DNA from: an uncultured Candidatus Saccharibacteria bacterium
Lineage (GTDB): Bacteria > Patescibacteriota > Minisyncoccia > UBA6257 > 1-14-0-10-44-23
DNA: 58,689 nucleotides
Direction of reading: 5' to 3'
Assembly (NCBI GenBank): GCA_964394435.1
Contig: CAYMXN010000001.1
Span: 109,739-168,427, forward strand
In this document: one piece after another, positions 19,367-52,089 of the stretch
How the letters are laid out: each line of letters begins with the position of its first letter
Position numbering within the stretch: position 1 is the first letter of the stretch
The notes under the pieces: generated by a model
Seen by the model: only the letters and a program-made list of their open reading frames with translations
Databases searched by the model: none
What the model was told of the DNA's origin: nothing
Position numbers and translations under genes: made by a program

Positions 19367-20029
19367 TTATTCGCCTTGGGCTACTTTTTCTTCCGCAAGG
19401 ACTGCGTAGATGCTTGGGTCGCGTTCGATCTCCTTAACTGCATCGAGAATCTCTTCCTCTTCGCTTGTTTTTGGCAGCGCAAGGAGTGCTTGGACGATTT
19501 CAGGAAACACTTTCTTGACTCTTGCGAAGTCAAAGCCAAATAGAAGTTCGATGGCCCGTTTTCGGTCTTGCTTAAATGCGAGAGGGAAGGCTCGGGTACG
19601 GAAGCGGAAATCCCAAGTACTCTTCTCTCCAAGTTCCCTGTCGGGCCATAGTCCGCTTACATACAGCCATTCTTCAACCAGTGTTTCGAACTCGATCCCG
19701 TCAATCGGGTCGTTTTCCTCTGGCCTGCTCTTTTGTTCTGCCGCTCTTCTTTCTTTTTCGTTTGGCTTGAAGACGATGGTTTTCTTCTCTTTGTTTTTCT
19801 GCTTTCGTTCCTGATTGAGCGCGAGGCTCAAGAGATAGAGCGTCGCAAATCCTATAAAGCAGGCCTCGGCGCTTATGTGTAGCGGCTCGATCATTCTAGC
19901 GATCGCATCTATCGCTTTCATGAAGAGAAATGTGGCGAGTATTGATGCTACGCATATCAGTATCAGTAGAATCGCCCCAACTGCTATCTTGCCCATCTTC
20001 GACAGGATTGCGATAACCCTTGCTTTCAT
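19367..20029 (-). CDS. Hypothetical membrane protein (cassette downstream of tRNA-Arg and its repeat)
   Basis: Two N-terminal hydrophobic helices, a Lys/Glu-rich linker, and AGAGGA 5 nt upstream of the ATG. Confidence 0.5.
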   Translation of the reverse strand: MKARVIAILSKMGKIAVGAILLILICVASILATFLFMKAIDAIARMIEPLHISAEACFIGFATLYLLSLALNQERKQKNKEKKTIVFKPNEKERRAAEQKSRPEENDPIDGIEFETLVEEWLYVSGLWPDRELGEKSTWDFRFRTRAFPLAFKQDRKRAIELLFGFDFARVKKVFPEIVQALLALPKTSEEEEILDAVKEIERDPSIYAVLAEEKVAQGE

Positions 20030-20092
20030 CTTTTCCTCTTTTCAAGGATCAAAAAGTAGGCCTAGGCTACTTGGGTTCAGCTTTGATTGGAC

Positions 20093-20115
20093 TGAACTGT
20101 GCCCTCGAACTGAAT
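20093..20115. repeat. Distal exact copy (23 nt) of the tRNA-Arg 3' end plus trailer
   Basis: gaactgtgccctcgaactgaatc is identical to 20191-20213. Confidence 0.9.
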
Positions 20116-20190
20116 CCTTCGGGGGGGTACTCAGGGCGAGGGTGGCTTTGCTATGTTCGCTTAGCCCCGCTACGCTTGCAGTGAGCTTGC
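20116..20190. repeat. Repeat-family insert E2 between the duplicated tRNA-Arg ends
   Basis: It shares the ordered blocks ccttcgg / ctcagggcgag / tttgcta / gcagtgagc / gccgaact with 51938-52016. Confidence 0.7.
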
Positions 20191-20213
20191 CGAACTGTGC
20201 CCTCGAACTGAAT
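20191..20213. repeat. Proximal copy of the 23-nt direct repeat (overlaps the genuine tRNA-Arg 3' end)
   Basis: Identical to 20093-20115. Confidence 0.9.
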
Positions 20214-20268
20214 CGAACAGTTATCTTCTCCTTAGGACGGAGTAGCTCTATCCATTGAGCTACGAGGG
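20197..20268 (-). tRNA. tRNA-Arg(CCT)
   Basis: Hand fold: acceptor GCCCTCG/CGAGGGC, D-arm GCTC..GAGC, anticodon loop GTCCTAA, and T-arm AACTG-TTCGATT-CAGTT. There is one A-A mismatch at the top of the anticodon stem. Confidence 0.8.
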
Positions 20269-20441
20269 CTATTGCACCTCTAAAGTTATATAACTTTTTG
20301 TTATATTAAGCAACTTTACTGAAGGGGGTTTTCTATGGTATAGTTGGTCCAGTTACCGGGAATTCCCGCCTAGACTGATTTAGGCGCTGATTGTCGGATC
20401 AGCGGTATTCTTTACAAATTTATTAACTATTTTAACTAACT

Positions 20442-42930: not shown

Positions 42931-42996
42931 GCATTTAGTATATCACTTTTGACATACCTTATTCACAGTAAGCCGCAGTTATCTTGTTTTAAAATG

Positions 42997-43078
42997 TGCT
43001 CGGGGAGAGAGTCGAACTCTCATGCCTTGCGGCGCTCCCTCTTGAGGGGAGTGTGTCTGCCAGTTCCACCACCCGAGC
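42997..43078 (-). tRNA. tRNA-Leu(CAA)
   Basis: Hand fold: acceptor GCTCGGG/CCCGAGC, anticodon arm CTCCC-CTCAAGA-GGGAG, a long variable arm, and T-arm GAGAG-TTCGACT-CTCTC. Confidence 0.85.
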
Positions 43079-43115
43079 TACGGGTGATGCGTCTAATTTT
43101 GTTTATTGCTTTGTT

Positions 43116-43186
43116 GCCTTCGCTCGCAGGACAGAGTAGTCCAGCTCGCTCTTGCGCCTCGCACTAAACGAAATTATATCGCATCC
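43116..43186. repeat. Direct repeat copy 1 (71 nt), repeat-family member E4a
   Basis: Identical to 43253-43323 except for one position (43182 c versus 43319 t). It carries the family blocks ccttcgct and cttgcgcctcgcac. Confidence 0.9.
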
Positions 43187-43252
43187 ATGCCTTTCTTTTG
43201 CTATGCGTTAAAGAATCCTGCAACGCATCTCTCGTTTATCGATTTTTTTACC

Positions 43253-43323
43253 GCCTTCGCTCGCAGGACAGAGTAGTCCAGCTCGCTCTTGCGCCTCGCA
43301 CTAAACGAAATTATATCGTATCC
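43253..43323. repeat. Direct repeat copy 2 (71 nt), repeat-family member E4b
   Basis: See copy 1. The 137-bp period and more weakly similar ~30-nt left flanks suggest a 2x tandem unit. Confidence 0.9.
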
Positions 43324-48415: not shown

Positions 48416-48490
48416 GCGTGTGTAGCTCAGTGGTAGAGCATTTCACTGATAATGAAAAGGTCGGAGGTTCGATCCCTCCCACACGCACCA
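48416..48490 (+). tRNA. tRNA-Ile(GAT), the only tRNA here with an encoded CCA
   Basis: Hand fold: acceptor GCGTGTG/CACACGC, anticodon arm TTTCA-CTGATAA-TGAAA, T-arm GGAGG-TTCGATC-CCTCC, then ACCA. Confidence 0.88.
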
Positions 48491-51713: not shown

Positions 51714-51748
51714 AAATCAAAAACAGCCTTATCGGCTGTTTTTGATTT
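51714..51748. terminator. Bidirectional terminator
   Basis: aaatcaaaaacagcc-ttatc-ggctgtttttgattt. Confidence 0.8.
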
Positions 51749-51920
51749 ATGACTTGCGTTGATAGTAATTGGCGACTTGGAAAGCGCCAATGGTTAAAAT
51801 AATTAAGACAATAACCGGGAAGAGGATGCTGATAACGATTCCAGCGGCGGCGATAAGTGCTAAAACGGCGAAGATGATGCCGGCGGTGTTGAGTATTTTT
51901 GCAATGGTTTGGTTTTTCAT
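51747..51920 (-). CDS. Small two-TM membrane protein (57 aa; not in the ORF track)
   Basis: My translation is MKNQTIAKILNTAGIIFAVLALIAAAGIVISILFPVIVLIILTIGAFQVANYYQRKS. The ATG lies 2 nt after the duplicated tRNA-Val 3' end. It competes with a less protein-like + strand ORF at 51769-51972. Confidence 0.4.
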   Translation of the reverse strand: MKNQTIAKILNTAGIIFAVLALIAAAGIVISILFPVIVLIILTIGAFQVANYYQRKS

Positions 51921-51921
51921 G

Positions 51922-51937
51922 GTGCGCCTTGCTGGGA
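51922..51937. repeat. Distal exact copy (16 nt) of the tRNA-Val 3' end
   Basis: gtgcgccttgctggga is identical to 52017-52032. Confidence 0.9.
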
Positions 51938-52016
51938 CCCTTCGGTGCTCTCAGGGCGAGAGTTGCCGGTAAGTCGTTTTGCTAGTTTATATTACTCGCA
52001 GTGAGCCCGCCGAACT
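51938..52016. repeat. Repeat-family insert E5 between the duplicated tRNA-Val ends
   Basis: Ordered blocks cccttcgg / ctcagggcgag / gtcgttttgctag / gcagtgagc / gccgaact. Its 5' half also aligns with E1 (gcgagagttgccgg..gtcgttttgctag versus gcgagttctgtg..gtcgttgctttgg). Confidence 0.7.
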
Positions 52017-52032
52017 GTGCGCCTTGCTGGGA
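52017..52032. repeat. Proximal copy of the 16-nt direct repeat (genuine tRNA-Val 3' end)
   Basis: Identical to 51922-51937. Confidence 0.9.
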
Positions 52033-52089
52033 TCGAACCAGCGGCCTTTTCAATGTCAATGAAACGCTCTACCACTGAGCTAAAGGCGC
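52018..52089 (-). tRNA. tRNA-Val(GAC)
   Basis: Hand fold: acceptor GCGCCTT/AAGGCGC, anticodon arm TTTCA-TTGACAT-TGAAA, and T-arm GCTGG-TTCGATC-CCAGC. Confidence 0.88.

What the first reader, a model, noticed from the sequence alone, without database searches (positions are those of the whole stretch)
20093..20268. The tRNA-Arg(CCT) 3' end is duplicated (23 nt, exact) around a conserved 75-nt insert
The sequence gaactgtgccctcgaactgaatc occurs at 20093-20115 and again at 20191-20213. The second copy is the genuine T-loop/acceptor 3' end plus 6 trailer nt of the minus-strand tRNA-Arg gene. The 75 nt in between are homologous to the insert found in the equivalent place behind tRNA-Val (51938-52016). 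Both share the ordered blocks ccttcgg, ctcagggcgag, tttgcta, gcagtgagc and gccgaact. Two different tRNAs each have their own 3' end duplicated around a related short sequence. That pattern looks like a target-site duplication or att-type scar of a small tRNA-targeting mobile or recombination element. I am not aware of this being described for this kind of genome. No integrase or transposase is present in the window. A GC-richer, SD-bearing membrane-protein gene (19367-20029) lies immediately downstream on the tRNA strand.
Basis: partly seen in the sequence, partly recalled or inferred. Interest (0 to 1): 0.72.

Follow-up and report, generated by a model that had tools for sequence, protein, structure and literature searches.

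The report
Tiny mobile hairpin targeting tRNA ends
A roughly 80-base hairpin-forming mobile DNA element has inserted just past the 3' end of two tRNA genes in this Saccharibacteria-like genome, copying 17 bases of each tRNA as it went in, which is a real and unusual but probably selfish insertion.

Summary
The exact 23-nt repeat lies at 20094-20116 and 20192-20214. tRNA-Val has a 16-nt exact repeat at 51922-51937 and 52017-52032. The inserts share conserved ends.

A congeneric metagenome contig (L240, about 86-87% identical on both flanks) carries the empty tRNA-Val site. There the tRNA, with an encoded CCA, runs straight into the ATG of the same 57-aa ORF. The window equals that sequence plus a 78-nt element plus a second copy of tRNA positions 58-74. 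This is an insertion between C74 and position 75 with a 17-bp target-site duplication.

A related Saccharibacteria MAG (L160) has the same element behind tRNA-Ile, and three tandem copies behind tRNA-Leu. Each is flanked by 22 nt of its own tRNA. Both of those sites are empty in the window.

The element has two inverted mini-hairpin units. It belongs to an apparently unnamed palindromic family found in many phyla, whose other members show no flanking duplication. No integrase or transposase gene lies in the window, so the enzyme is unknown.

The closest analogues are the E. coli tyrT 178-bp repeats, casposon integration at tRNA ends, and REPINs. I rate it a new variant of a known kind.

The parts
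20198..20269 (-). tRNA-Arg(CCT) gene, intact; position 73 is at 20198
   Evidence: ARAGORN; Rfam tRNA 59 bits
20197..20213 (-). Proximal copy of the 17-bp duplicated target (tRNA positions 58-73 plus C74), part of the working tRNA gene. The exact 23-nt repeat is 20192-20214.
20116..20196 (-). Arg-locus element, 81 nt, AGTTCGGCAAGCTCACTGCAAGC...CTCGCCCTGAGTACCCCCCCGAAGG. Its boundaries are ambiguous by 5+1 nt because the repeat is 23 nt long. The left mini-hairpin CAGT|TCGGCAAGCTC|ACTG lies at 20179-20197 and the right unit at 20116-20136.
20099..20115 (-). Distal (displaced) copy of the 17-bp target, a non-functional tRNA-Arg 3' fragment. The exact 23-nt repeat is 20094-20116.
19367..20029 (-). 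220-aa predicted membrane-protein ORF on the tRNA strand, 69 nt downstream of the distal copy. No Pfam hit. No promoter-like site lies between the tRNA and this ORF.
52018..52089 (-). tRNA-Val(GAC) gene, intact
52017..52033 (-). Proximal copy of the 17-bp duplicated target (A58 to C74) of tRNA-Val
51939..52016 (-). Val-locus element, 78 nt, AGTTCGGCGGGCTCACTGCGAG...CTCGCCCTGAGAGCACCGAAGG. It is absent from the orthologous site of congener L240.
51922..51938 (-). Distal copy of the 17-bp target. Its first base is changed (A58 to G). It is followed by CA, so it reads as the original ...GCGCA-CCA end.
51747..51920 (-). 57-aa hydrophobic ORF whose ATG overlaps the CCA of the displaced tRNA-Val end. 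In the empty-site relative it overlaps the CCA of the real tRNA.
42996..43078 (-). tRNA-Leu(CAA), an unoccupied target here. The orthologous tRNA in L160 is followed by three tandem copies of the element plus duplication.
48416..48490 (+). tRNA-Ile(GAT) with encoded CCA, an unoccupied target here. The orthologous tRNA in L160 carries one element plus a 22-nt duplication.

Best explanation
Each insert is a short (74-81 nt) non-autonomous mobile element. It is built from two inverted mini-hairpin units, each with a 4-5-bp stem closing the conserved loop TCGRCARGCTC.

Shown: the element integrates into a tRNA gene at a fixed point, between C74 and position 75. It always has the same orientation, and it duplicates the target bases upstream of that point. 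The duplication is 17 bp (A58-C74) in this genome and 22 bp (G53-C74) in the relative L160.

Because the duplicated segment reaches the tRNA's 3' end, the upstream copy keeps the tRNA gene whole. The downstream copy keeps the original sequence, including any encoded CCA and the start region of the next gene, in front of that gene. The insertion is therefore tolerated.

Inferred: a trans-acting enzyme that makes staggered cuts a fixed distance apart, 17 or 22 bp depending on lineage. It would recognise the element's hairpin ends and the T-arm/acceptor end of tRNA genes in general rather than one tRNA sequence.

Also inferred: tandem arrays such as the one at tRNA-Leu in L160 grow by unequal crossing-over between the duplicated copies. 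The element itself is selfish or neutral, and it is co-transcribed with the tRNA and the downstream gene.
For: Empty versus filled site. L240 has tRNA-Val ...GGTTCGATCCCAGCAAGGCGCAC|CATG with no element. Its two flanks match window 52692-52017 (87.3%) and 51937-51345 (85.8%), overlapping by the single target copy.

Other relatives also have empty tRNA-Val, tRNA-Ile and tRNA-Leu(GAG) sites: L225/L226, L207, L238 and L234.

Same element at four different tRNAs. The window has Arg and Val. L160 has Ile and Leu(CAA).

The L160 Ile and Leu copies have nearly identical interiors but carry different, locus-specific flanking repeats. The repeat therefore comes from the target.

The ends are discrete and conserved, and the junction is the same (N73-C | A[G/C]TTCG...) at all loci.

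The duplication length is constant within a genome: 17 and 17 in the window, and 22 nt at every L160 copy (tRNA-Ile and the three tRNA-Leu copies).

Distal copies keep CCA where the ancestral gene had it. This holds for Val here, for Ile in L160, and for the window's empty Ile.

The element end blocks are identical between genomes whose genes are only about 68-72% identical.

Mini-hairpin stems covary: CAGT/ACTG, CACT/AGTG, CCCT/AGGG and GTGGT/ACCAC. There are 56 units with at least 4 pairs against about 10 expected.
Against: No transposase, integrase or Cas1 gene lies in the window, and no autonomous version was found.

Only four occupied tRNA loci in two genomes were seen, and only two copies in 58.7 kb.

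Related palindromic elements in other phyla show no flanking duplication. The duplication may therefore not be a general property of how this family moves.

The empty Val site could in principle be a precise deletion between the 16-nt repeats rather than the ancestral state.

There is no orthologous empty site for the Arg locus.

The duplication length differs between the two genomes, 17 versus 22.
Confidence: 0.62

Rival explanations
1. The insertion was made by replication or repair template switching, not by a dedicated enzyme. A nascent strand leaves the tRNA gene after C74, copies an abundant hairpin element elsewhere, and returns upstream in the T-arm. This leaves an insert flanked by a duplication.
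For: No enzyme was found. Family members in other phyla lack duplications. The element ends (TTCGR) resemble the T-loop TTCGA. A nested copy in L160 has a different repeat length, 9 nt.
Against: The element ends are the same at all four loci, and so are the exit point (C74), the orientation and the within-genome duplication length. Microhomology at the return junction is only 0-3 nt and is not consistent between loci.
Confidence: 0.13
2. The structure is an att-type scar or miniature element of a site-specific (tyrosine-integrase type) system that crosses over in the T-loop. The working tRNA 3' end was brought in by the element and the distal copy is the displaced original.
For: The identity block runs from the T-loop to the tRNA 3' end, which is the classic pattern for islands in tRNA genes (PMC4383910, PMC9897764). 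The distal copies look like the original ends, with CCA. Tandem arrays occur.
Against: Only 74-121 nt lie between the repeats and there is no integrase. The same interior sits at tRNA-Ile and tRNA-Leu with different cores, so the core cannot be element-borne. The islands described at tRNA genes are kilobases long (PMC9897764).
Confidence: 0.1
3. The element is a selected RNA module of the tRNA transcript. It could be a 3'-trailer structure or a small RNA released by tRNA-processing enzymes, like RttR of the E. coli tyrT operon. On this view mobility is secondary.
For: The element is on the same strand as the tRNA and the next ORF, with no promoter- or terminator-like site between them. The end blocks are far more conserved than neighbouring genes. 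The E. coli analogue is processed into an RNA, annotated as rttR.
Against: The element is sporadic. It is absent from most relatives and from 10 of the 12 tRNAs here. It has no Rfam match. Folding energy of the insert is not better than that of shuffles, z -0.5 to -0.6. The distal tRNA fragment does not form a conserved minihelix with the insert (my inspection).
Confidence: 0.1
4. The distal fragment is the decayed remnant of a second, tandem tRNA gene with an unrelated spacer, or the structure is an assembly artefact.
For: None beyond the bare presence of a partial tRNA copy.
Against: The spacer is conserved behind four different tRNAs. Only 17 or 22 nt are duplicated, with sharp edges. The empty site differs by exactly the element plus one repeat. 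Independent assemblies agree.
Confidence: 0.02

Closest known systems
E. coli tyrT/tyrV distal repeats (178-bp unit repeated about 3 times; rttR/RtT RNA, Rfam RF00391; Egan & Landy 1978 and Rossi et al. 1981 cited from memory)
   Same: An insert sits directly behind a tRNA gene and is followed by a copy of the tRNA 3' end that starts at T-loop position 58. This is AATCCTTCCCCCACCACCA in E. coli (six occurrences of its 18-nt core ATCC...CCA in 2.2 kb) and A58-C74 here. It is tandemly repeated, as at tRNA-Leu of L160. It is co-transcribed with the tRNA.
   Different: There is no sequence similarity (nhmmer E 0.33) and no RF00391 hit. The E. coli unit is 159 nt plus 19 nt, it follows A76 rather than C74, and it is known at one tRNA family only. 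Here the same element sits behind four different tRNAs, and an empty site proves insertion.
Casposon / Cas1-type integration at tRNA 3' ends (A. boonei, Methanosarcina)
   Same: Both have terminal inverted repeats plus an unusually long target-site duplication of fixed length for a given element (14-15 bp, up to 35). The target is at the 3' end of a tRNA gene with the T-psi-C region involved. Insertion is directional, and repeated use of one site gives tandem arrays (PMC5137440, PMC4779613).
   Different: Casposons are large elements that encode Cas1 and a DNA polymerase. These elements are 74-121 nt with no gene. In A. boonei the duplicated segment overlaps only the last 5 bp of the tRNA and extends downstream, whereas here it lies inside the tRNA (positions 58 or 53 to 74). 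No Cas1 gene was seen in the window.
REPINs / BIMEs (REP doublets forming hairpins, mobilised by RAYT transposases)
   Same: Both are about 70-110 nt non-autonomous elements made of two inverted short hairpin units that can fold into one long hairpin. Both are intergenic and gene-free (PMC3116915).
   Different: This element has no GTAG motif. REPINs have no known tRNA-end targeting. The copy number seen here is low. This family's end sequences are shared across phyla. I recall REPINs as lineage-specific and as not making long target duplications, but I did not check either point.
Genomic islands and prophages integrated in tRNA genes by tyrosine integrases (T-loop sublocation; Williams 2002, PMC100330, as cited in PMC9897764; not read here)
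   Same: A regenerated tRNA gene plus a displaced 3' fragment, with the identity block running from the T-loop to the 3' end (PMC4383910).
   Different: Those elements are kilobases long, encode the integrase and carry their own copy of the tRNA segment. Here the segment is target-derived and the element is under 125 nt.

Membership tests
Transposon-type non-autonomous element (MITE-like) with target-site duplication | The filled site equals the empty site plus the element plus one extra copy of a short target segment | tested here: met
   L240 empty tRNA-Val site versus the window
Transposon-type non-autonomous element (MITE-like) with target-site duplication | Discrete conserved ends with inverted-repeat character | tested here: met
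   Ends A[G/C]TTCGRC...YCGAAGG occur at all six copies. The arms match at about 15 of 22-23 positions.
Transposon-type non-autonomous element (MITE-like) with target-site duplication | Several copies at different loci, each flanked by its own target sequence | tested here: met
   Arg and Val in the window; Ile and Leu in L160
Transposon-type non-autonomous element (MITE-like) with target-site duplication | An autonomous partner or transposase that shares the ends | not testable with these tools
   None in the window.
Tyrosine-integrase island in a tRNA gene (attL/attR) | An integrase gene and cargo lie between the regenerated tRNA and the displaced fragment | tested here: not met
   Only 74-121 nt lie between the repeats, with no ORF
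Tyrosine-integrase island in a tRNA gene (attL/attR) | The element carries its own copy of the tRNA 3' segment, so the same element goes with the same tRNA | tested here: not met
   The L160 Ile and Leu copies have near-identical interiors but different tRNA segments
Casposon | Cas1 (casposase) and family B polymerase genes within the inverted repeats | tested here: not met
   The element has no coding capacity, and no Cas1 was found among about 50 window ORFs
Casposon | A long, element-specific target duplication at a tRNA 3' end | tested here: met
   17 bp and 22 bp, constant within each genome. Compare PMC5137440 and PMC4779613.
REPIN (REP doublet mobilised by a RAYT) | Two inverted short hairpin units forming a longer hairpin | tested here: met
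   Fold of the insert alone, architecture and stem covariation
REPIN (REP doublet mobilised by a RAYT) | A cognate RAYT gene and tens to hundreds of copies per genome | not testable with these tools
   Two copies in 58.7 kb. The whole genome was not available.
RtT RNA (Rfam RF00391) | A match to the family's covariance model | tested here: not met
   No RF00391 hit at E up to 10 (window 20000-20300) or E up to 1 (L160)

The most novel reading that the evidence does not exclude
Saccharibacteria harbour an undescribed integration system. It uses a ruler-like enzyme, either Cas1/casposase-like or of a new kind. The enzyme recognises the generic T-arm/acceptor end of any tRNA gene, cuts after C74 and 17 or 22 bp upstream, and inserts a 75-nt double-hairpin element. 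That element belongs to a pan-bacterial and apparently unnamed palindromic family. The same process would explain the long-unexplained E. coli tyrT repeats.
Probability: 0.25. Interest if true: 0.8.

Novelty: new variant of a known kind. Interest (0 to 1): 0.62.

Why it matters
Candidate-phyla-radiation bacteria such as Saccharibacteria have tiny genomes. My impression, unchecked, is that few active mobile elements have been described in them.

Here a gene-free 75-80-nt element is shown, by an empty-site relative, to have inserted at an exact position of tRNA genes of different identity. The target duplication is far longer than the few base pairs I recall (unchecked) for most bacterial insertion sequences.

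That combination points to an integration enzyme with a fixed-distance ruler and structural recognition of tRNA gene ends. The only known parallels are casposases and CRISPR Cas1.

It also gives a plausible origin for the classic E. coli tyrT repeats. In addition it draws attention to a cross-phylum palindromic repeat family that I could not find named in Rfam or in the paper library.

On the practical side, such displaced 17-22-nt tRNA ends and hairpins break short-read assemblies and can mislead tRNA annotation.

Tried and rejected
- **Rfam.** The window at gathering threshold, and permissive scans of the Arg locus, the L160 array and a Croceibacterium array, gave only tRNAs and noise.
- **Viral contigs.** Two pattern scans gave chance hits only. 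The phage collection matched only the tRNA part. Plasmids gave three unannotated hits to the proteobacterial relative.
- **Genome scan.** It did not return the window's own genome among the 80 of 86 loci listed. Most GC-rich hits that I first took for chance are in fact members of the wider palindromic family.
- **Metagenome scan with the left-end 23-mer.** It found no further Saccharibacteria copies. It found only isolated left units in unrelated organisms.
- **Literature.** Searches by DNA strings and by the pseudo-peptides these repeats encode found nothing relevant.
- **tRNA-like minihelix idea.** I tested whether the insert plus the distal tRNA end forms a minihelix. The Arg copy pairs CCCUCG with CGAGGG, but the equivalent positions do not pair in Val or Leu, so I rejected it.
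- **Promoter or terminator inside the element.** None found.
- **Integron attC-like reading.** The GTTCGGC and CCGAA ends are in the wrong order, so I rejected it.
- **IS91-type GTTC targeting.** It fits Arg only, so I rejected it.
- **Orthologue of the Arg locus.** The closest relative's contig (L216) stops 151 nt before the neighbouring gene, so no empty Arg site could be examined.
- **More distant relative.** P0006 is not syntenic.

Full report
**1. The observation**

The window has 12 tRNA genes. tRNA-Arg(CCT) lies on the minus strand at 20198-20269.

The exact 23-nt repeat GAACTGTGCCCTCGAACTGAATC is at 20094-20116 and 20192-20214. The copy at 20192-20214 is tRNA positions 57-73 plus six trailer bases, and 75 nt separate the two copies.

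tRNA-Val(GAC), at 52018-52089 on the minus strand, has a 16-nt exact repeat at 51922-51937 and 52017-52032.

Read in the tRNA's sense, both loci have the same layout: tRNA | CAGTTCGGC-RR-GCTCACTGC-R-AG ... variable middle ... CTCGCCCTGAG ... CCGAAGG | copy of the tRNA 3' end.

- The left-end 23-mer occurs only at these two places with up to three mismatches, and never in 100 shuffles.
- A Logan contig from a different sample spans the entire Arg locus at 99.95% identity.

**2. What kind of genome this is**

Pfam on about 50 ORFs shows ordinary chromosomal genes. These include the F-type ATP synthase operon, S2/EF-Ts, topoisomerase I, DprA, ParB, peroxiredoxin, RluA-type pseudouridine synthase and glycosyltransferases. 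There are also many unknown proteins and a type IV secretion-like ATPase. SHMT and FolD are inferred from synteny with annotated relatives; those two window ORFs were not scanned.

The syntenic relatives I found are labelled Candidatus Saccharibacteria or Patescibacteria group. No integrase, transposase or Cas1 was detected in the window.

**3. More copies, and empty sites**

One genome-collection scan found a Saccharibacteria MAG contig, L160. It is syntenic with window 42.3-50.3 kb at about 68-72% nucleotide identity.

- Its tRNA-Ile(GAT) is followed by a 74-nt element with the same ends, then 22 nt of the tRNA-Ile 3' end with one mismatch.
- Its tRNA-Leu(CAA) is followed by three tandem units. 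Each unit is an element plus 22 nt of the tRNA-Leu 3' end.

In the window these same two tRNAs are unoccupied. Other syntenic relatives (L225/L226, L207, L238, L234) have unoccupied tRNA-Val, tRNA-Ile and tRNA-Leu(GAG) genes.

The decisive result came from looking up the exact 57-aa ORF that follows the tRNA-Val locus. Contig L240, from a JGI metagenome, encodes the identical protein and is about 86-87% identical to the window on both sides.

- L240 reads ...GGTTCGATCCCAGCAAGGCGCACCATGAAAAACC... The tRNA-Val carries an encoded CCA that overlaps the ORF's ATG. There is no element and only one copy of the repeat.
- The window equals this sequence plus 78 nt plus a second copy of ATCCCAGCAAGGCGCAC, whose first base is now G.
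- The event is therefore an insertion between C74 and position 75 with a 17-bp target-site duplication covering tRNA positions 58-74.

**4. Anatomy across the loci**

- *Junction.* The element always begins right after N73-C74 with A[G/C]TTCGRC and ends with YCGAAGG.
- *Orientation.* It is the same relative to the tRNA at all four loci.
- *Duplication length.* It is 17 nt at both window loci, and 22 nt (G53-C74) at all L160 copies.
- *CCA.* Distal copies are followed by CA, so they read CCA, at Val and at L160-Ile. The empty Val (L240) and the empty Ile (window) also encode CCA. The working copies are now followed by the element's AG instead.
- *Source of the repeat.* The L160 copies at Ile and at Leu have nearly identical interiors but different flanking tRNA segments. 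The flanking repeat is therefore made from the target at insertion and is not carried by the element.
- *Array growth.* Two of the three Leu units share a nested 38-nt extra unit flanked by a 9-nt repeat. That part of the array therefore grew by duplication of whole units, most simply by unequal crossing-over between the 22-nt repeats.

**5. Structure of the element**

The insert alone folds as one long imperfect hairpin. Its energy is not better than that of shuffled sequence, with z about -0.5 to -0.6.

More telling, each end is itself a small hairpin: a 4-5-bp stem closing the loop TCGRCARGCTC. The stem sequence changes while the loop stays the same. Examples are CAGT/ACTG (Arg, Val, Ile), CACT/AGTG (Leu), and CCCT/AGGG and GTGGT/ACCAC in other bacteria.

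Across the fetched loci, 56 such units have at least four contiguous stem pairs. About 10 are expected with shuffled partners.

**6. A wider family**

Many genome-scan hits that I first dismissed as chance are 70-95-nt palindromes with the same ends, CCTTCGRCARGCTCAGGGCGAACGG...CCGTTCGCCCTGAGCYTGYCGAAGG. They occur in Alpha-, Beta-, Gamma- and Deltaproteobacteria, Acidobacteria, Chloroflexota, Thermodesulfobacteriota and others. One example is a tandem array of four in Croceibacterium soli.

The left-end 24-mer also turns up alone in metagenome contigs of 29-68% GC, often in the loop of another hairpin. In one case it abuts the 5' end of a tRNA-Arg(GCG) gene.

These relatives show no flanking duplication. 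I found no Rfam family and no paper for them. From memory, they are the repeats behind the spurious 'FDKLRA / LSLSKG / PELVEG' peptides in many annotations.

**7. Mechanism**

*Shown.* This is a discrete element. There is presence/absence variation between relatives. The flanking duplication is target-derived and has a fixed end at C74, one orientation and a genome-constant length.

*Inferred.* A trans-acting enzyme makes cuts 17 or 22 bp apart. It reads the element's hairpin ends and the generic T-arm/acceptor end of tRNA genes. I infer generic recognition because four tRNAs of different sequence are used.

*Why the insertion is harmless.* The duplication leaves a whole tRNA gene upstream. 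Downstream it leaves the original sequence in front of the next same-strand ORF. No promoter- or terminator-like site lies between them.

*Rivals.*

- Templated repair by strand switching. It is disfavoured by the constant ends, junction and lengths.
- An att scar of an integrase system. It is disfavoured by the size and by the locus-specific repeats.
- A selected RNA module. It is disfavoured by the sporadic distribution, though later co-option is not excluded.
- A tandem-tRNA remnant or an artefact. Both are refuted.

**8. Comparison with known systems**

*E. coli tyrT-tyrV region.* I fetched it from E. coli K-12. The 18-nt core of the tRNA-Tyr 3' end (ATCCTTCCCCCACCACCA, 19 nt with the preceding A58, running to A76) occurs six times, three of them in 178-nt tandem units after tyrV. 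The RttR RNA is annotated there. This is the closest known analogue, and it starts at the same T-loop position. It shares no sequence with the present element, and it has never, to my knowledge, been shown to be an insertion.

*Casposons.* They share the long, element-specific duplication, the tRNA-end target, the directionality and the tandem arrays (PMC5137440, PMC4779613). They differ in being large and in encoding Cas1.

*REPINs.* They share the double-hairpin, gene-free architecture (PMC3116915). They have no known tRNA targeting, and I recall (unchecked) no long duplication.

*Classical islands in tRNA genes.* They leave the same kind of displaced fragment. They are kilobases long and bring their own tRNA segment (PMC4383910, PMC9897764).

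**9. Verdict**

It is a new variant of a known kind: a miniature non-autonomous element with an unusual, exact tRNA-end target and an unusually long duplication.

The enzyme, the genome-wide copy number and any RNA role remain open.

Noticed in passing
L189 620-1010 (Croceibacterium soli); also L112, L116, L117, L119, L123, L128, L132, L143, L151, L165, L167, L176, L178, L186: There is a cross-phylum family of 70-95-nt near-perfect palindromes with the ends CCTTCGRCARGCTCAGGGCGAACGG...CCGTTCGCCCTGAGCYTGYCGAAGG. They sometimes occur in tandem arrays or nested in one another, and they lack flanking duplications. I found them neither in Rfam nor in the paper library. The window's element is a diverged member.
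   Followed up: partly
L194-L215 (metagenome contigs), e.g. L206 542-569, L210 1665-1697: The 24-mer CAGTTCGGCAAGCTCACTGCAAGC occurs unchanged in contigs of 29-68% GC. It is often the loop of a local hairpin. In L210 it directly abuts the 5' end of a tRNA-Arg(GCG) gene in the opposite orientation.
   Followed up: partly
window 20124-20184: In three other samples, Logan contigs of the same strain stop at 20123 and restart at 20185. The flanks run on unbroken for kilobases at or near 100% identity. The central 61 nt of the Arg element therefore seems to be polymorphic in those populations, and the alternative is not the empty site.
   Followed up: partly
L232 and L233 ends (equivalent to window 51937): Contigs from two samples of a close relative (AhpC 94% identical) end exactly at the last base of the distal tRNA-Val repeat. 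This suggests either coexisting filled and empty alleles or an A/G polymorphism at the first duplicated base.
   Followed up: no
window, all 12 tRNA genes: In ten of the 12 tRNA genes the discriminator base is followed by C-A rather than CCA. Only tRNA-Ile (48416-48490) encodes CCA. The empty-site tRNA-Val of L240 encodes CCA, and that CCA overlaps the ATG of the next ORF.
   Followed up: no
window 43098-43186 and 43235-43323: An 89-nt direct repeat (90% identical, 137 nt apart) lies just upstream of the 5' end of tRNA-Leu(CAA), between that tRNA and parB.
   Followed up: no
L160 476-596 and 333-453: Two of the three tRNA-Leu array units carry a nested 38-nt unit, CAGTTCGGCAGGCTC-CCCTCGGAAATACTCGGGG-CAAG. 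It is flanked by a 9-nt direct repeat (CAGTGCAAG). This is a second-order insertion with a different repeat length.
   Followed up: partly
L217 13705-17415 versus L218 13705: In a more distant Saccharibacteria-like lineage, a 3.7-kb island sits directly after tRNA-Ser(TGA). It encodes a large serine recombinase, an HTH protein and a 421-aa protein, and the junction has only a 6-nt repeat (CCGCAA). It is absent from L218.
   Followed up: partly
L207 5659-5731 and L238 3261-3335 versus window 52018-52089 and L225 10610-10682: The orientation of tRNA-Val(GAC) relative to the neighbouring peroxiredoxin gene differs between relatives. In addition, the 57-aa ORF is present only in the window's close relatives.
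   Followed up: no
L207 1-200: The start of this relative's stored sequence holds two left-type units in tandem (CACTTCGACTCG...CTCAGTGCGAGC, then CAGTTCGGCAAGCTCACTGCAAGC). They lie between two GGGGCCT-containing segments.
   Followed up: no
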